64,000 nucleotides of DNA from Escherichia phage Eps7: sequence record NC_010583.1. One strand, written 5' to 3'. Positions 1,612 to 25,670 of the stretch are shown in pieces; the first letter of the stretch is position 1; every line of letters begins with the position of its first letter. Position numbers and translations under genes: made by a program. The notes under the pieces are model-generated. The model was not told the origin of the DNA. It saw nothing but the letters and a program-made list of their open reading frames with translations, and did not search any database.

Positions 1612-3277
1612 TTATGCAAAGAATTTACCGTTTTTGAAGTCAATCAAAGTACGTTGCCCGTTTGCATAGGTAATTAAATGCGTTTGCGTCCAGCTTGACG
1701 CGCCCACGTTGTAGCCCATATCAAGCGACCCCGCCACGCCAGCGGTATAAACGCCGCCGTAAATGCTAGCCGTATGAGTATGACCAGTGTTAAGGCGTCC
1801 CAACTTTTTAAACTGCTTAGGATTGCCCCGACTGCCGTTAATGCCATTGTGACCATGTACGCCGCATTCAATGCCAGCGATTTTAAACGACTGGTCAGTA
1901 GTCAGGAAAATAGCGTTAAATTCGCAACCTGCGACACTACGCAAGGCGTAATCTAGCACGTTAAAAGTATCATCCTTTTCAGCAATAGCGGCGTATATAG
2001 CAGCGTTTAGACGGTGATACAATTCCGCGTTTGCGGGATCGTCTTTAATGTTAGCGTTACGATCATCTAACCAGCGGGATAAAGCTAAATCATGGTTAGA
2101 TTCAACAATGATTGTTTGAGAAAAATCACGCTCCATTGATTCTAATACGCGTCCAGTGTCGATAAGATCATCTAGAACCTTGTCACGTCCTGCGGCGTAC
2201 TGTTTAGCAAGGAATACACCACTAGCGCGGTTGTGATGGTTACGCGATGTAAAATCATGCACATCATGAATAAACTGATATTTAGGCTTGAGAATATCAA
2301 GCAAGCTGTTTTCACTAGCCCATGAAGCAACGGCGCATTCATCATCTAGTTTTTCGGCGTGAATATCGCCATATTGCAAGCCTAGAACATGATCGGACGT
2401 TTCAAAACATCCGGTGGGCATAGCGCAAACATTCAAATCATAGAACATTCCGCTTTCATCCATTGTTTCAAGCTGGCGGCAATAAAATTCTCCGTCGTCG
2501 TCAAATTCTACCAGCAAAGCACCGTAATTATGCAGCGCCTCGGCTTTTTGACCTGCTTTCTGCTGAATGTAGTTTTTAAGCGTAGCCGTTCCGGTTGAAT
2601 ACATACGGCGCACTACTTCACCTTTTAACGCTGGCACACTTTCAGCGGTAATTTTAGCGTGACCAATTGCCAGACCTTCAATATTAAAGCCGTGGCGGTT
2701 TCTGCGAATCCTGAAAGCGGATAGTCTGCCGTTGGTAACACGTTAATTTCAGCCATGAAAGCAAAACGGCGATTATTTAAAAATACGTTTTTCTCGCAAA
2801 TATATTTATTAAATGCGGGATCGTATTTAATGCCTTCGTTACCTTCTCCATTCTGGAAGCCGTTTTTATTGTAAATGAATTTACTAACCAGCAATTCACC
2901 GCCGATATATTCAGCGAATTTTTCCAGACTTGCTAAAAAGTTTTTATGCGGGAGGAAGTATTATTTTGAATCGACGTTAGAATAAAACGGCGACCGGATT
3001 TAACTTCCCACTGTTCCACGGTACTAGAAACAATCCCCGCCGCTTCTGGGCGATCATCATTTTTAATCGCCTTTTCAGCTTTTGCCGCTTTCGGTTTCGC
3101 TGGCTTGTTTGCTTCCAGCCAATCACAAATCGCGGTGGAATGTTTCGTTGTATCGTAAACAGCTTTTGAAATATCGTCGCAAACTTCTAATTTAGTAGCG
3201 CGCAAACGCTTACCATAGAAATTAAAATCAGCGGCCATTTTCAGAATTTGAGCTTGTTTTTCTGCGGAAATATTCAT
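1612..3277 (-). CDS. A1: A1-like pre-early protein with metallophosphoesterase domain; reading frame interrupted twice
   Basis: three consecutive same-strand ORFs (2933..3277, 2625..2894, 1612..2637) totalling ~545 aa; GVHGH and GHTHT phosphoesterase-like motifs in the C-terminal piece; ORF ends look out of frame. Confidence 0.55.
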
Positions 3278-17987: not shown

Positions 17988-18503
17988 TCAAACATTGATA
18001 TCTCCCCTCAATACCGCTGCCACATCTTCATCGATTTGGAGTACTTCACCAGTAGTACAGTTAACCACTTTATCATAGCTTGTGAATTTGCCAGACACAA
18101 TATCCTCTAGAGGAATAGGAGTCTTGCTCATCTCAAAAGAGACGTTGATATAACGTGGGTCACGCACAGAATTAGTATGCACATGTCCGTGAATGTTTAG
18201 CCTACCACGAAGTTCTGCTTCATGCAATGGACAATGTGACAGCCAAAACTTCTTGCCACCACCTGTTTGCTTACCTAGAGCCTGAATATCATCATAAACG
18301 TCTATAAGATCTTTAATATGCAGACCCTGACGCTCAGCATCGTGGTTTCCCATAATTAGTTGGTTAGGCACGTTGTGGATAACCGACTTCAACTTGGCCA
18401 ACCCTTCTCGCCCCACGGCACTATCTCCTAGCAGCACAAGTTTTGTACGCTTGCCAATGTGCTTGGACAAAGTATCTAGGATATACTCATCGTGCTCTTT
18501 CAT
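17988..18503 (-). CDS. calcineurin-like metallophosphoesterase
   Basis: 171-aa ORF with GDSAVGRE, GNHD and GHVH motifs. Confidence 0.6.
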   Translation of the reverse strand: MKEHDEYILDTLSKHIGKRTKLVLLGDSAVGREGLAKLKSVIHNVPNQLIMGNHDAERQGLHIKDLIDVYDDIQALGKQTGGGKKFWLSHCPLHEAELRGRLNIHGHVHTNSVRDPRYINVSFEMSKTPIPLEDIVSGKFTSYDKVVNCTTGEVLQIDEDVAAVLRGDINV

Positions 18504-18576: not shown

Positions 18577-18783
18577 TTATTTATTCCTTACACATGTGGA
18601 TATAATAGTATAACTATCGTAGAATATACCTTTTGTGAGTCCAATTTGAATACTGGAATAATCTAGCTCACCTCCAGCTACATCACATAAGTGTTTTGTA
18701 TCTTCTGCAGTAAATCTCATATTATCGTCGTAAGAATCACATCCAGCTAACAGCAATGTAGATAAGAATACCAGCTTTTTCAT
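18577..18783 (-). CDS. small lipoprotein
   Basis: 68-aa ORF with lipobox-like signal MKKLVFLSTLLLAGC. Confidence 0.5.
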   Translation of the reverse strand: MKKLVFLSTLLLAGCDSYDDNMRFTAEDTKHLCDVAGGELDYSSIQIGLTKGIFYDSYTIISTCVRNK

Positions 18784-21203: not shown

Positions 21204-21620
21204 TTAATGTGCTTGATGTGGGAATCTCTTCCTAACTAGGTACATTGTTATTGGATATATTGAATACATAAGTATAGGGGAGAAAAGGGTGAAATAAGCC
21301 GTGACTCCCCCAGCTAACATCAGTGGTATCAATGCTAGAGTAAGGGCCATAAGAATCATACCGAATGAGACAGCCAGGGCTACTGTTATGCAGTTCTCTA
21401 ACTCCATCCAAAGCCAACAATATTTCGTATTTCTCTGGCAGTTGCATTTGCAAACGCCGAATGTGCCCATAATTATATACTCTAGCCCATGAACGACTTT
21501 CTTTAATGTGTCATTTTGGGTAACTAGTGCGACAACCGTAAGAATTATCATTAAAATGAAAACTACTAGGCTTATCTTCCATATTCCTAGTAACATCATG
21601 GTGAATAGTTCTGCAAACAT
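21204..21620 (-). CDS. multi-pass membrane protein
   Basis: 138-aa ORF with several hydrophobic segments. Confidence 0.5.
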   Translation of the reverse strand: MFAELFTMMLLGIWKISLVVFILMIILTVVALVTQNDTLKKVVHGLEYIIMGTFGVCKCNCQRNTKYCWLWMELENCITVALAVSFGMILMALTLALIPLMLAGGVTAYFTLFSPILMYSIYPITMYLVRKRFPHQAH

Positions 21621-21695: not shown

Positions 21696-22110
21696 TCAGA
21701 CTAATTCTACGTGACCACCGTCGTAAGTACCACGATCGATCTCATCATGATAATCACCAGAACTATTCCAGTCGGCACCAAAACGAAGTTTGACACCAAG
21801 TTCCTTACCAGCTTGTTCAAAAGCCTTCTTAACAGCCCAAAATGCTTCCAGATCTTTCCAATCAATCTTACCATTAATATATGGTGCAAAATCGATAGCG
21901 TCTCCAGTTACATGCTTACTTTTGCTAGGGTCTTTCAAAAATGAAGTACCATTAGCAATGTTTTGGGCACTTTGTGCTACTGTACGAATACCTTGTACGA
22001 TTGTGAAATCATATGGGGATAGTTCTAAAGCCCTACGAGCTACCTTTTGTAGCTCGGGCTTAACAGTTGCTAATTGTTTTTCGTCTTATTTTACCTAAAT
22101 TAAAACTCAT
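21696..22110 (-). CDS. lys: endolysin, L-alanyl-D-glutamate peptidase type; apparent +1 frameshift near 5' end
   Basis: C-terminal 80 aa (HVTGDAIDFAPY...GGHVELV) plus upstream out-of-frame start MSFNLGK; matches recalled T5 endolysin; ATGA overlap with upstream gene. Confidence 0.7.
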
Positions 22111-22761
22111 ATAGATCTACCTAATGATCTTTGCTGCGGTGAGCAAAGCTTTGTTAAGTACTCCTTAAATTGTTCCGAGTCAGCTGTATCTACGGGTTTA
22201 TCCTTCCAGGCAATACCTATGTATCCAGCATAGATATTATTTAGGTTGAAATACGGACAAGTATAGACGTAATTAAAAGTAACGTTCTTAAACGCGGGTA
22301 TATTTGACCCCATATATTTATTTACTTTTACACTTAAATCCGAAGCGTAGTTAAAGCCTTCCAGGTGACGTCTATAAAGTTCAGACGTCTTGTTTACTGC
22401 TTTATCGGCCAAGTCAGCCCTATCCAATTGCGCATTGCTTTCCCATGCAATAATGTTCGAATAATCGTTTATAGCATCGGGTTTATACTTGACTACAAAA
22501 ACAGCATCCGCACCCGTCTGAGAGAAAAGAACCATGCTCTTTTCTCGTGCTACATTAGGAAAGTTATCTATCCTTTGGGTTTGAACATCCTGTAAAACCG
22601 CAGACGTGAGAAGTCTTTAAAAATGACATCACCTCGCTAGTGTTACTTACAAACAAGAAAATAATGACAGCAACTAAGATAGTTAGCAGACGTTTTAGTA
22701 GCGAAGCTGGATCTTTCGCTTCTTGGAGCAGTACCGTTAATAGTTGTAGAAACTTTTCCAC
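22107..22761 (-). CDS. putative holin, frame interrupted
   Basis: ORFs 22564..22761 (N-terminal TM) and 22107..22535 with frame continuity across 22565-22616; coupled to endolysin start. Confidence 0.5.
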
Positions 22762-22785: not shown

Positions 22786-22814
22786 ATTATACTAATTCTA
22801 GAGGAAAATTACAA
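22786..22814 (-). promoter_or_regulatory. sigma70-type promoter (-35 TTGTAA, -10 TATAAT) upstream of holin-endolysin
   Basis: ATTATA 22786-22791, TTACAA 22809-22814, 17-bp spacer. Confidence 0.5.
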
Positions 22815-22872: not shown

Positions 22873-22908
22873 AGGCAAAAGAAAAGCCAGAGTCGTTAAA
22901 CTCTGGCT
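22873..22908 (-). terminator. rho-independent terminator
   Basis: AGCCAGAG-loop-CTCTGGCT followed on minus strand by T-rich run. Confidence 0.6.
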
Positions 22909-22917
22909 TAAAACTAC

Positions 22918-23529: not shown

Positions 23530-24282
23530 TTATCCAACTAGTGGTTCTAGCTCTAAGTCACAGAAGTGGTACACATCGGTACGAAGTGCATCAAGTCCGT
23601 TGAAGGTATTCTCAAATTTATGAGAAATGTATTTTTCAGGAATACCGCTTTCAGACGGATGATCTGTCTCGATGCGATACTTATTAGTAATACCAGATTC
23701 AACCTTAATAAGCATGGAATCCATATCTAGAGTATTGGTTTCCATGATTAGCTCTCCCTCATTGGGGAAACGCACATCGGTAACGATTGCGACGTCTGGG
23801 TCGTCTTTATCGATGGATTGCTCCAGAATTATGAGCCAAATGCGTTCATGCACCAGCTGCCTTCCTAACTCAGTACCTACAAGCTGTAGCATTTTTCTTG
23901 GGGAGATAAATACGCTATACAGCGCATCATCAGCTTGCCCAATTAACTGCTGAGGATCAAGGTATTTTCCTTCAAAAATCGGCCAAACGTACGAGAAGTC
24001 CTCAAACTTATCGATACCATACTTAAACCATACGTCTCTAGCTCGCTCCAATTGAGATTGTGTGACTGTAAACCATTGGTCAATCTCTTTTCCCCTGCGC
24101 TCTCCCAGAAACTCTGGAGTTACCCCGAGGATTACGGATGCAAGTTCGTAAACGGGTTTAGCAAAACTGTAACGACGGGATAAACACGTTGGGAACGTGT
24201 CATTACACCAGTCAATCATTAATTCTGCAACGGTATCTTTTCCCGCACCAGCCTCACCATGTAAACCGACTAATACTGACAT
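23530..24282 (-). CDS. deoxynucleoside monophosphate kinase-like P-loop protein
   Basis: 250-aa ORF with N-terminal GEAGAGKDT Walker A, similar in layout to phage dNMP kinases. Confidence 0.6.
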   Translation of the reverse strand: MSVLVGLHGEAGAGKDTVAELMIDWCNDTFPTCLSRRYSFAKPVYELASVILGVTPEFLGERRGKEIDQWFTVTQSQLERARDVWFKYGIDKFEDFSYVWPIFEGKYLDPQQLIGQADDALYSVFISPRKMLQLVGTELGRQLVHERIWLIILEQSIDKDDPDVAIVTDVRFPNEGELIMETNTLDMDSMLIKVESGITNKYRIETDHPSESGIPEKYISHKFENTFNGLDALRTDVYHFCDLELEPLVG

Positions 24283-24635
24283 TAATCTTTCCTATTTGTA
24301 ATGGGTGGATAGTAAACTAAGCAACGTTTTTCTTGTAAATCTTGACGATAGAAGCAAACCATACCGGTCAGTCGTGAAATGTAAGAGTAAACTGCTTCCT
24401 CGCATTTTGCTTTTGCATTCCAATCTTTGTAAGGTACAACAACTACTACGCCATCTTCACCATTTGTAGCTAATTTCTTTTCGAATTTGAAATCAAAGCT
24501 ACACGGCTGAAGTCCTTTAGGCCAGTCAACATGAGCTTGTTTTAACTCATGGGATGGCTCCGGTTTTATTTCTTCTGCACAGCCTGTGATTGTGATTGCG
24601 GCTGCGAGCAGTACTCCAAGTTTCCAGTTAAACAC
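24282..24635 (-). CDS. lipoprotein (candidate outer-membrane spanin subunit)
   Basis: 117-aa ORF with lipobox ITGC; overlaps upstream TM/coiled-coil gene. Confidence 0.45.
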   Translation of the reverse strand: MFNWKLGVLLAAAITITGCAEEIKPEPSHELKQAHVDWPKGLQPCSFDFKFEKKLATNGEDGVVVVVPYKDWNAKAKCEEAVYSYISRLTGMVCFYRQDLQEKRCLVYYPPITNRKD

Positions 24636-25015
24636 GCTAATCTTTCCTCGAACTCTTTATTCTGCTTTTTAGCAATTAATGTTACCAATCCAGGCTTTGC
24701 AGCGATAACATCTTGACGACTAAGAGCTTTATCTAACTGCTTAATCTTTTTGTCTAGATCTGCTTGCGAAATATTATTCATTGTGAAATACTGGTTCATT
24801 CGAGTCTCACGAAGTTCACTCTCAGTTTTCACTTTATTAAGAGAAGTCTCTAGAGTGGAGATCTTTTTAGTCGCAACTGCAAGATCTCCCGCTAAAGTTT
24901 CAACCTTATTTACTAAATGATAAGCACCGAATCCGATACCTATCGCAAGACCAGCTCCCAGGATATACCACTTACCTTGCCATATTCCTGAAAGAAGTTT
25001 TTGTATCAAATCCAT
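24566..25015 (-). CDS. N-terminal TM coiled-coil protein (candidate inner-membrane spanin subunit)
   Basis: 149-aa ORF; TM helix then heptad-rich region; 3' end overlaps lipoprotein gene. Confidence 0.45.
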   Translation of the reverse strand: MDLIQKLLSGIWQGKWYILGAGLAIGIGFGAYHLVNKVETLAGDLAVATKKISTLETSLNKVKTESELRETRMNQYFTMNNISQADLDKKIKQLDKALSRQDVIAAKPGLVTLIAKKQNKEFEERLACLTGNLEYCSQPQSQSQAVQKK

Positions 25016-25670
25016 GTGCTGCTAACCTGTCTTTATCTGATACGGTAATCATATCAGGCTCACCAGTTCCTAGTACACCGAAGATATACTGTTCGAGAAC
25101 TTGGTGTAAACGGTATAAGTTACTTTCAATTTCCTGCCACGGAATACCTGACTGATGGAAACGAATGTTTGTCTGAATTACGAAGTTACGAACATCATCG
25201 TTATCGTTCTTCTTAATACCTTTCACATATGCAATTGGTACGCGCAGTTCAGATAAGATACGTTCTGCTTTAGGTTTTGCTTCAACCAACATATCTCGCA
25301 TGGTTTCACGAACATCACCACGATTCTTGTCTAGTAAGTAAGAACGGGCATGTAATCCCATTTCTTCCATTTTATCAAATACAGCATCGATGTTGAACGT
25401 TTTGAAACTGAATGCCGGATGCCAGCAGGACAGCTCATGTAACCAGTAAACTTCACCTGCAATAAACAGCGGATTTACTGAGTATTCGAAATCACCACGG
25501 AAGGATAAGGAACCTTCACGAAACACCTGACGATTATGAACAATATTCTTTTCTACATCGTCGGTTACTTTTACTAGCAGCTCTTCAGTTTTACGCTCCC
25601 AGACACGATCTGGATCAAATAAACTATTCTGCAAATCGTATACATCATTGAACTTTGAAATGATTCTCAT
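24972..25670 (-). CDS. hypothetical protein
   Basis: 232-aa ORF 32 nt downstream of promoter. Confidence 0.55.
   Translation of the reverse strand: MRIISKFNDVYDLQNSLFDPDRVWERKTEELLVKVTDDVEKNIVHNRQVFREGSLSFRGDFEYSVNPLFIAGEVYWLHELSCWHPAFSFKTFNIDAVFDKMEEMGLHARSYLLDKNRGDVRETMRDMLVEAKPKAERILSELRVPIAYVKGIKKNDNDDVRNFVIQTNIRFHQSGIPWQEIESNLYRLHQVLEQYIFGVLGTGEPDMITVSDKDRLAAHGFDTKTSFRNMAR

What the first reader, a model, noticed from the sequence alone, without database searches (positions are those of the whole stretch)
24282..25015. Candidate two-component spanin pair separate from holin-endolysin
A 149-aa protein with N-terminal TM helix and coiled-coil region overlaps by ~70 nt a 117-aa lipoprotein (lipobox ITGC). 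This overlapping arrangement is typical of inner- and outer-membrane spanin subunits. The pair lies ~2 kb from the holin-endolysin genes.
Basis: inference. Interest (0 to 1): 0.4.

Follow-up and report, generated by a model that had tools for sequence, protein, structure and literature searches.

The report
T5-family overlapping spanin gene pair

Summary
On the minus strand, a 149-aa ORF (24566..25015) overlaps by 70 nt a 117-aa ORF (24282..24635). The first has an N-terminal membrane helix and a heptad-repeat helix. The second has a lipoprotein signal, lipobox ITGC, Cys19.

The window is a T5-like Epseptimavirus, 99.9% identical here to Escherichia phage PSa2. The two proteins are 91% identical to T5 T5.045 and T5.044. 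They fall in the same PHROG families (739, 812) as the T4 spanins PseT.3 and PseT.2. Many GenBank records already call them i-spanin and o-spanin. Kongari et al. 2018 list a "T5 family" of overlapped spanins with this same 70-bp overlap, including EPS7.

The lipobox Cys and the two C-terminal Cys are invariant across 19 homologues down to 19% identity. The C-terminal pair aligns with T4 PseT.2 C87/C98, which are essential for lysis.

Like T4, the pair sits in a different transcription unit from holin and endolysin, which start about 1.5 kb (holin) and 2.2 kb (endolysin) away.

Function is inferred from homology. I found no direct experiment on T5-family spanins.

Side note: holin, endolysin and A1 are frameshifted in this window, probably through sequence errors.

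Verdict: interpretation supported, already known, low interest.

The parts
24566..25015 (-). i-spanin gene (149 aa), homologue of T5 T5.045 and T4 PseT.3
   Evidence: ORF. phrog_739 'Rz-like spanin' at 3e-38. 91% identical to T5.045. 29% identical to T4 PseT.3, E 3e-06.
24911..24967 (-). Predicted N-terminal transmembrane helix of the i-spanin (residues 17-35, YILGAGLAIGIGFGAYHLV)
   Evidence: Best 19-residue Kyte-Doolittle window, mean 1.55. Aligns with the PseT.3 membrane helix.
24821..24910 (-). Heptad-repeat (coiled-coil) helix of the i-spanin periplasmic domain (residues 36-65)
   Evidence: The a/d positions are V L L A I L L V, and 0 of 1000 shuffles reach the score. The low-confidence single-sequence AF2 model is all-helical.
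24608..24634 (-). i-spanin C-terminal Cys motif CLTGNLEYC (C128, C136), encoded inside the overlap
   Evidence: CxTG(N/D)xxxC is present in all 5 T5-type i-spanins aligned. It is absent from T4 and PEi26 PseT.3.
24566..24635 (.). 70-nt overlap of the two genes. It encodes the i-spanin C-terminus in one frame and the o-spanin signal peptide in another.
   Evidence: T5 and IrmaTschudi have the same 70-nt overlap, as published for T5 (PMC6139136).
24282..24635 (-). o-spanin gene (117 aa precursor, 99 aa mature lipoprotein), homologue of T5 T5.044 and T4 PseT.2
   Evidence: ORF. phrog_812 at 4.2e-30. 29% identical to T4 PseT.2, E 5e-08. Homologues carry Pfam PF26831 Phage_T4_Spanin. The AF2 model (pLDDT 84.5) matches o-spanin/PseT.2 models in BFVD.
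24642..24649 (-). Shine-Dalgarno sequence GAGGAAAG, 6 nt upstream of the o-spanin GTG start
   Evidence: Read directly from the sequence.
24579..24635 (-). o-spanin lipoprotein signal peptide (residues 1-19) ending in lipobox ITGC (24579-24590). Cys19 is the lipidated residue and Ala is at +2.
   Evidence: Pattern match. Cys19 is invariant in 19 homologues and none has Asp at +2.
24321..24356 (-). o-spanin C-terminal motif CFYRQDLQEKRC (C94, C105). It aligns with T4 PseT.2 C87 and C98.
   Evidence: Alignment to T4 PseT.2. Both Cys are invariant. C87 and C98 are essential for lysis in T4 (PMC6139136).
22884..22909 (-). Terminator-like hairpin that ends the transcription unit containing the spanin genes (232-aa gene, i-spanin, o-spanin, dNMP kinase, Clp-like protease)
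   Evidence: T5 has an annotated terminator at the equivalent place.
22786..22814 (-). Sigma-70-like promoter (10 of 12 matches) just upstream of the holin gene, starting the separate holin-endolysin unit
   Evidence: T5 has an annotated promoter at the equivalent place.
22107..22761 (-). T-type holin gene, split here by a 2-nt deletion into ORFs of 65 aa and 142 aa (context, not part of the pair)
   Evidence: PF11031 matches on both pieces. Alignment to IrmaTschudi and PSa2.
21696..22110 (-). T5 Lys-type endolysin gene, frameshifted here by +1 nt near codon 8 (context)

Best explanation
The two genes encode the two-component spanin of a T5-like (Epseptimavirus) phage.

Shown from sequence and homology:
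- The 149-aa product is an inner-membrane protein with one N-terminal membrane helix and a mostly helical, coiled-coil-forming periplasmic domain.
- The 117-aa product is made as a lipoprotein precursor. By the standard pathway it is cleaved and lipidated at Cys19. Because it has Ala rather than Asp at +2, the Lol system should send it to the outer membrane.

Inferred from work on lambda Rz/Rz1 and T4 PseT.3/PseT.2:
- The two periplasmic domains bind through their C-terminal parts, forming a bridge across the periplasm that is caged by the peptidoglycan mesh.
- Once holin and endolysin have destroyed the wall, the complexes are free to cluster and change shape. They fuse the inner and outer membranes, which removes the last barrier to release of progeny.
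- Disulfide bonds between conserved periplasmic cysteines are expected to stabilise the complex. The candidates are C94 and C105 in the o-spanin, and probably also C45-C78 in the o-spanin and C128/C136 in the i-spanin.

The pair is transcribed with nucleotide-metabolism genes, separately from holin and endolysin. This is the arrangement in T5, and T4 likewise keeps its spanin genes apart from its holin and endolysin.
For: Profile matches to spanin families: phrog_739 at 3e-38 and phrog_812 at 4.2e-30. T4 PseT.3 and PseT.2 hit the same families at 5.6e-37 and 3.1e-41.

Direct BLASTP to T4 PseT.3 gives E 3e-06 and to PseT.2 gives E 5e-08. The second alignment pairs MVCFYRQDLQEKRC with MICYYRQELKEDKC.

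Both proteins are 91% identical to T5 T5.045 and T5.044, annotated as Rz-like spanins. Near-identical phages annotate i-spanin and o-spanin at this place.

Kongari et al. 2018 (PMC6139136) list a T5 family of i- and o-spanins that includes EPS7, and state that the T5 spanins overlap by 70 bp. They show that pseT.3/pseT.2 complement a lambda Rz/Rz1 amber lysogen, and that PseT.2 C87 and C98 are both essential.

In 19 o-spanin homologues down to 19% identity, Cys19, W38, Y85, C94, Y96 and C105 are invariant, and no sequence has Asp at +2.

The gene order (232-238-aa gene, i-spanin, overlapping o-spanin, dNMP kinase, Clp-like protease, T holin, endolysin-sized gene) recurs in metagenomic contigs whose o-spanins are only 35-41% identical (alignment). 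Their overlaps are 43 and 34 nt. A third, shorter contig (o-spanin 27% identical) keeps only the adjacent pair, overlapping by 14 nt.

The AF2 model of the o-spanin has pLDDT 84.5. It shows a signal helix, a flexible linker, a beta hairpin and a long helix. Its best BFVD matches include 'Outer membrane lipoprotein o-spanin', 'Outer membrane lipoprotein Rz1' and 'PseT.2'.

The heptad repeat in the i-spanin beat 1000 of 1000 shuffles.
Against: No experiment on a T5-family spanin was found in the searchable literature. Function rests on homology at 22-29% identity to the tested T4 pair.

The simple hydropathy score of the i-spanin helix (1.55) is just under the conventional 1.6 threshold.

The local Pfam copy gave no significant hit for either protein. 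The PF26831 label comes only from precomputed annotations on homologues.

The i-spanin structure model is of low confidence (pLDDT 62.8, single sequence).

In this particular window the partner lysis genes, holin and endolysin, are frameshifted. If that sequence is accurate, the pathway as a whole would not work.
Confidence: 0.93

Rival explanations
1. The membrane protein and lipoprotein are not lysis proteins. Instead they serve another envelope function, such as superinfection exclusion or receptor blocking, as the T5 lipoprotein Llp does for FhuA.
For: T5-like phages do encode other small lipoproteins. The pair is transcribed with early-type metabolic genes rather than with holin and endolysin. 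No direct experiment on the T5 pair was found.
Against: Both proteins are homologous to the T4 pair that functionally replaces lambda Rz/Rz1. The two Cys essential for that function are conserved. The two genes always occur as an adjacent i-then-o pair. T4 spanin genes are likewise unlinked to t and e.
Confidence: 0.03
2. The 117-aa overlapping ORF is a chance reading frame and is not expressed. Only the 149-aa gene is real.
For: It starts with GTG. Several records, PSa2 among them, do not annotate it.
Against: A strong Shine-Dalgarno sequence lies 6 nt upstream. The profile match is 4.2e-30. Homologues down to 19% identity keep the lipobox Cys and the C-terminal motif. T5 and IrmaTschudi have ATG at the same position. 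The spanin census reports that gene callers often miss overlapped o-spanin genes (PMC6139136).
Confidence: 0.01
3. In this particular genome the spanin genes are intact remnants of a lysis system that has been inactivated, because holin and endolysin are frameshifted. They would then have no function here.
For: There is a 2-nt deletion in the holin gene and a 1-nt insertion in the endolysin gene relative to PSa2, IrmaTschudi and T5. None of 436 related records shares these lesions.
Against: The essential A1 gene is also split, into 341-aa and 114-aa pieces against 555 aa in PSa2. Other genes are shortened too. A phage lacking A1, holin and endolysin could not be propagated, so scattered sequencing or assembly errors are the simpler reading. 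The spanin genes differ from PSa2 at only 1 position between 24282 and 25015.
Confidence: 0.03

Closest known systems
Phage T5 spanins T5.045 (i-spanin) and T5.044 (o-spanin): the 'T5 family' of overlapped two-component spanins in Kongari et al. 2018 (PMC6139136)
   Same: Both proteins are 91% identical to the T5 proteins. The 70-nt overlap and the Shine-Dalgarno sequence are the same. The downstream neighbours are the same: dNMP kinase, Clp-like protease, then a terminator and promoter before holin and endolysin. EPS7, the type phage of the species to which the nearest relative of this window belongs, is listed as a family member.
   Different: The o-spanin starts with GTG here and with ATG in T5. 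T5 has the HNH homing endonuclease gene hegF between the 232-aa gene and the i-spanin. This window has none, and the first ~15 residues of the i-spanin differ.
Phage T4 PseT.3 / PseT.2 spanins (PHROG 739 / 812; Pfam PF26831 Phage_T4_Spanin)
   Same: The profile families are the same. The i-spanin has a membrane helix followed by a coiled-coil helix and a KPGLV motif. The o-spanin has a lipobox, a W-P motif and a C-terminal CxYRxxLxExxC with both Cys that are essential in T4. In both phages the genes lie apart from holin and endolysin. The holin is also T-type in both.
   Different: Identity is only 22-29%. T4 genes overlap by 4 nt ('separated' class) against 70 nt here. T4 PseT.3 has no Cys, whereas this i-spanin has a C-terminal extension with two. 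The o-spanin here has an extra Cys pair, C45/C78, that T4-type sequences lack. The endolysin partner is a T5 Lys-type peptidase, not T4 lysozyme.
Phage lambda Rz / Rz1
   Same: The logic is the same two-component one: a type II inner-membrane protein with a coiled-coil periplasmic domain, plus an outer-membrane lipoprotein encoded downstream in a different reading frame. T4 homologues of this pair can replace Rz/Rz1.
   Different: No sequence similarity was detected: there were no Pfam Rz or Rz1 hits. Rz1 is wholly embedded within Rz, while here the genes only overlap. Mature Rz1 is short and described as unstructured, while this o-spanin is 99 aa with a predicted hairpin-plus-helix fold.

Membership tests
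Two-component spanin (general definition, Kongari et al. 2018) | The i-spanin has a single N-terminal transmembrane helix and a periplasmic domain rich in helix or coiled coil. | tested here: met
   The hydrophobic stretch at residues 17-35 scores KD 1.55, which is borderline and Gly-rich. The heptad repeat at residues 36-65 beat 1000 of 1000 shuffles. The AF2 model is all-helical but low-confidence.
Two-component spanin (general definition, Kongari et al. 2018) | The o-spanin has a lipoprotein signal with a lipobox Cys and outer-membrane sorting (no Asp at +2). | tested here: met
   LLAAAITITGC with Cys19 and +2 Ala. The Cys is invariant and no homologue has Asp at +2. Lipidation itself cannot be tested here.
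Two-component spanin (general definition, Kongari et al. 2018) | The o-spanin gene is embedded in, overlapping or directly following the i-spanin gene. | tested here: met
   The overlap is 70 nt in a different frame. Adjacency is conserved in divergent contigs with overlaps of 43, 34 and 14 nt.
Two-component spanin (general definition, Kongari et al. 2018) | At least one periplasmic cysteine is available for homotypic disulfide links. | tested here: met
   There are two Cys in the i-spanin and four periplasmic Cys in the mature o-spanin. Actual bonding was not tested.
Two-component spanin (general definition, Kongari et al. 2018) | The pair is required for outer-membrane disruption. Mutants arrest as spherical cells in Mg2+, and the pair complements lambda Rz/Rz1. 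| not testable with these tools
   This needs an experiment. It has been shown only for the T4 homologues (PMC6139136).
T5 spanin family (Kongari et al. 2018) | Sequence membership with T5.045/T5.044 and the 70-bp overlapped architecture. | tested here: met
   Both proteins are 91% identical to the T5 proteins. The overlap is 70 nt in the window and in T5. The published description matches.
T4 PseT.3/PseT.2 family (PHROG 739/812; Pfam PF26831) | Significant match to the family profiles. | tested here: met
   phrog_739 at 3e-38 and phrog_812 at 4.2e-30. The T4 proteins hit the same profiles. PF26831 is precomputed on homologues. The local Pfam copy gave no hit.
T4 PseT.3/PseT.2 family (PHROG 739/812; Pfam PF26831) | Conserved C-terminal Cys pair of the o-spanin (T4 C87 and C98, both essential). 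| tested here: met
   C94 and C105 align with them and are invariant in 19 sequences.
T4 PseT.3/PseT.2 family (PHROG 739/812; Pfam PF26831) | T4-type details: a Cys-free i-spanin and the separated gene architecture. | tested here: not met
   The i-spanin has C128 and C136 in a C-terminal extension that T4 lacks. The overlap is 70 nt against 4 nt in T4. This makes the pair a T5-type subfamily, homologous to but distinct from the T4 type.
Lambda Rz/Rz1 family | Sequence match to Rz or Rz1 profiles and the embedded architecture. | tested here: not met
   There were no Rz/Rz1 Pfam hits at E up to 1. The o-spanin gene extends 284 nt beyond the i-spanin stop.
Unimolecular spanin (T1 gp11 type) | A single protein with both an N-terminal lipoprotein signal and a C-terminal transmembrane helix. 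| tested here: not met
   The only hydrophobic stretch of the 117-aa protein is its signal peptide: the best 19-residue window is residues 1-19. The C-terminus is polar.

The most novel reading that the evidence does not exclude
T5-type spanins may use a disulfide layout different from both tested systems.

The o-spanin has an extra Cys pair, C45/C78. In 19 homologues both are present or both absent, never one alone. That pattern suggests an additional intramolecular bond.

The i-spanin carries a conserved C-terminal CxTG(N/D)xxxC motif that T4 PseT.3 lacks. In the window and T5 the motif is encoded wholly inside the gene overlap, opposite the o-spanin signal peptide. The overlap would then be constrained in both frames by functionally important residues. 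This could explain why the motif and an overlap persist in the T5-type pairs examined.
Probability: 0.4. Interest if true: 0.2.

Novelty: already known. Interest (0 to 1): 0.07.

Why it matters
It matters little beyond correct annotation. The pair is a textbook-type lysis component already catalogued for T5 and its relatives.

The practical point is that the overlapping o-spanin gene is still missed in many deposited genomes, including the closest relative, PSa2. The GTG start here may contribute to that. Annotation pipelines should therefore look for it explicitly.

The T5 subfamily's extra cysteines would be a modest, testable extension of the disulfide rules worked out for lambda and T4 spanins.

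Tried and rejected
- **Pfam scan of both proteins:** only sub-threshold noise. The local copy seems to predate PF26831, which appears only as a precomputed label on homologues.
- **Sequence search of the PDB with both proteins:** nothing below E 0.07, so no solved relative.
- **Word-indexed protein search with the o-spanin:** only 5 clusters. The exhaustive representative search was needed to reach 20 diverse relatives.
- **Single-sequence AF2 model of the i-spanin:** low confidence, used only for secondary structure.
- **Literature searches for T5.044/T5.045 or essentiality screens covering T5 spanins:** no experimental data. The HIDEN-SEQ preprint covers T4, Bas37 and Bas54, not T5-like phages.
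- **Specifically lysis-defective genome:** considered and rejected, because A1 and other genes are also broken.
- **The 68-aa lipoprotein at 18577..18783 as a second o-spanin:** considered and set aside. It has Asp at +2 and no membrane-protein partner.

Full report
**Observation**

The ORF list shows two ORFs on the minus strand: 24566..25015 (149 aa, ATG start) and 24282..24635 (117 aa, GTG start). They share 70 nt (24566..24635) in different frames.

The GTG is the first possible start codon after an in-frame stop. GAGGAAAG lies 6 nt upstream of it.

The 117-aa product begins MFNWKLGVLLAAAITITGC. This fits the lipobox pattern and a PROSITE-type lipoprotein rule, with Cys19 and Ala at +2. 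Only two of the 265 ORFs of at least 50 aa in the window fit that rule.

The 149-aa product has its most hydrophobic stretch at residues 17-35. The Kyte-Doolittle mean is 1.55, which is Gly-rich and just under the usual threshold.

Residues 36-65 form a clean heptad repeat that none of 1000 shuffles matched.

**What the window is**

The region is 99.9% identical to Escherichia phage PSa2 (Epseptimavirus EPS7 species, Demerecviridae). It matches 447 phage records, nearly all T5-like phages of Salmonella and Escherichia.

Several of these records annotate the two genes as i-spanin and o-spanin, for instance IrmaTschudi bas28_0153 and bas28_0154.

In T5 itself the equivalents are T5.045 and T5.044. 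They are annotated 'Rz-like spanin', with notes recording similarity to T4 and RB69 PseT proteins.

The window proteins are 91% identical to the T5 proteins.

**Homology to tested spanins**

Both proteins hit PHROG families labelled Rz-like spanin: phrog_739 at 3e-38 and phrog_812 at 4.2e-30. T4 PseT.3 and PseT.2, taken from the T4 record, hit the same two families.

Direct BLASTP gives 29% identity for each pair, with E 3e-06 and 5e-08. The o-spanin C-terminus MVCFYRQDLQEKRC lines up with T4 MICYYRQELKEDKC.

A tblastn search also reached a T4-like phage PseT.2 directly.

Kongari et al. 2018 (PMC6139136) report three relevant results:
- pseT.3/pseT.2 complement a lambda Rz/Rz1 amber lysogen, and both PseT.2 C87 and C98 are essential for lysis.
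- A 'T5 family' of i- and o-spanins exists (T5, EPS7, SPC35, Stitch and others).
- The T5 spanins overlap by 70 bp.

**Conservation**

An exhaustive HMMER search of 1.84 billion representatives found 20 relatives of the o-spanin.

I aligned 19 sequences, including T5, T4 and a second T4-like phage, with identities down to 19%. The invariant positions are:
- Cys19 (the lipobox Cys)
- W38
- Y85
- C94
- Y96
- C105

No sequence has Asp at +2.

C45 and C78 are either both present (14 sequences) or both absent (5, the T4-like ones), and never singly. This hints at an extra intramolecular disulfide in the T5 type.

T5-type i-spanins carry a C-terminal CxTG(N/D)xxxC motif that is absent from T4-type PseT.3. 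In the window and T5 this motif is encoded inside the overlap.

Contigs encoding o-spanins only 35-41% identical (alignment) keep the same gene order:
1. 232-238-aa gene
2. i-spanin
3. overlapping o-spanin
4. dNMP kinase
5. Clp-like protease
6. T holin
7. an endolysin-sized gene (136-137 aa, no Pfam hit on record)

Their overlaps are 43 and 34 nt. A shorter third contig (o-spanin 27% identical) keeps only the adjacent i/o pair, overlapping by 14 nt. Their o-spanins carry the precomputed Pfam label PF26831 Phage_T4_Spanin.

**Structure**

The AlphaFold2 model of the o-spanin, built from a 16-sequence alignment, has mean pLDDT 84.5. It shows a signal helix, a long unstructured linker, a beta hairpin (residues 50-66) and a long helix (69-96). 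This resembles the published description of PseT.2.

Its best matches among viral predicted structures include proteins named o-spanin, Rz1 and PseT.2.

The single-sequence i-spanin model is low-confidence (pLDDT 62.8) but entirely helical.

No relative has a solved structure.

**Context**

A terminator-like hairpin (22909..22884) follows the Clp-like protease gene. A good sigma-70-like promoter (22814..22786) precedes the holin gene. T5 has annotated signals at the equivalent places.

The spanin genes therefore lie in a different transcription unit from holin and endolysin. The holin start is 1.5 kb away and the endolysin start is 2.2 kb away.

This separation is normal. In T4 the spanin genes are also unlinked to t and e, and the holin here is of the T4 T type (PF11031).

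**Mechanism**

Shown here:
- the sequence features of a type II inner-membrane protein
- the sequence features of an outer-membrane-sorted lipoprotein
- homology of both to a functionally tested pair
- conservation of the residues essential in that pair

Inferred from the lambda and T4 literature:
- The two proteins bind through their C-terminal periplasmic parts.
- They span the periplasm while caged by peptidoglycan.
- After endolysin action they fuse the inner and outer membranes.
- Disulfide-linked homodimers are required.

No experiment on T5-family spanins was found.

**Rivals**

A non-lysis envelope role, a spurious overlapping ORF, and an inert remnant of a broken lysis system were each considered and given low weight. 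The reasons are set out under the rival explanations.

**Side observations**

Holin and endolysin are both frameshifted in this window. Relative to PSa2, IrmaTschudi and T5, the holin has a 2-nt deletion and the endolysin a 1-nt insertion. No other phage record shares these lesions.

The essential A1 gene is also split. Scattered sequence errors are therefore the likeliest cause.

A second small lipoprotein lies at 18577..18783. It has Asp at +2 and falls in a PHROG also labelled Rz-like spanin, but it has no membrane-protein partner.

**Verdict**

The feature is an already known member of the T5 spanin family. Interest is low.

Noticed in passing
window 21696-22761 (minus strand): Both lysis partners are broken in this window. 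The T-type holin is split into ORFs of 65 aa and 142 aa by a 2-nt deletion near 22608. The T5 Lys-type endolysin stops after 16 codons because of an extra base near 22088, with clustered substitutions at 22084-22099. None of 436 related phage records shares these lesions.
   Followed up: partly
window 1612-3277 (minus strand), also 107-772 and 17988-18503: The essential pre-early gene A1 is 555 aa in PSa2 but is split here into 341-aa and 114-aa ORFs by uncompensated indels. The dNMPase-like and phosphoesterase ORFs are also shorter than in PSa2. Frameshift lesions are therefore scattered across the window rather than specific to lysis genes, which points to sequencing or assembly errors.
   Followed up: partly
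window 18577-18783 (minus strand): A 68-aa predicted lipoprotein (MKKLVFLSTLLLAGCD...) has Asp at +2, the inner-membrane retention signal in E. coli. It matches phrog_6073, which is labelled 'Rz-like spanin', and some RefSeq records name it so. The upstream 99-aa protein has no membrane helix, so it has no i-spanin partner. It occurs in only 145 phage records. The spanin label looks doubtful and its function is unknown.
   Followed up: partly
window 24633-24635: The o-spanin start codon is GTG here, while T5 and IrmaTschudi have ATG at the same position. The change is silent in the overlapping i-spanin frame (GCA to GCG, Ala). The closest relative, PSa2, and several other records leave the o-spanin gene unannotated.
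   Followed up: yes
window 24972-25670 and the i-spanin start at 25015: T5 has the HNH homing endonuclease gene hegF between the 232-aa gene and the i-spanin. This window has none. The 232-aa gene (phrog_4243, unknown function) overlaps the i-spanin by 44 nt, and the first ~15 residues of the i-spanin differ from T5.
   Followed up: no
window 21204-21620 (minus strand): A 138-aa protein of unknown function (phrog_5944) lies directly downstream of the endolysin gene. It corresponds to T5.039, whose T5 record note says it contains four transmembrane domains. It has the same position in T5 and in IrmaTschudi and PSa2. It could be a lysis accessory protein; this was not examined.
   Followed up: no
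o-spanin residues 45 and 78 (window 24501-24503 and 24402-24404); i-spanin residues 128-136 (24608-24634): Cys45 and Cys78 of the o-spanin are both present in 14 homologues and both absent in 5, never one alone. T5-type i-spanins share a C-terminal CxTG(N/D)xxxC motif that T4 PseT.3 lacks. This suggests a T5-type disulfide pattern distinct from T4.
   Followed up: partly
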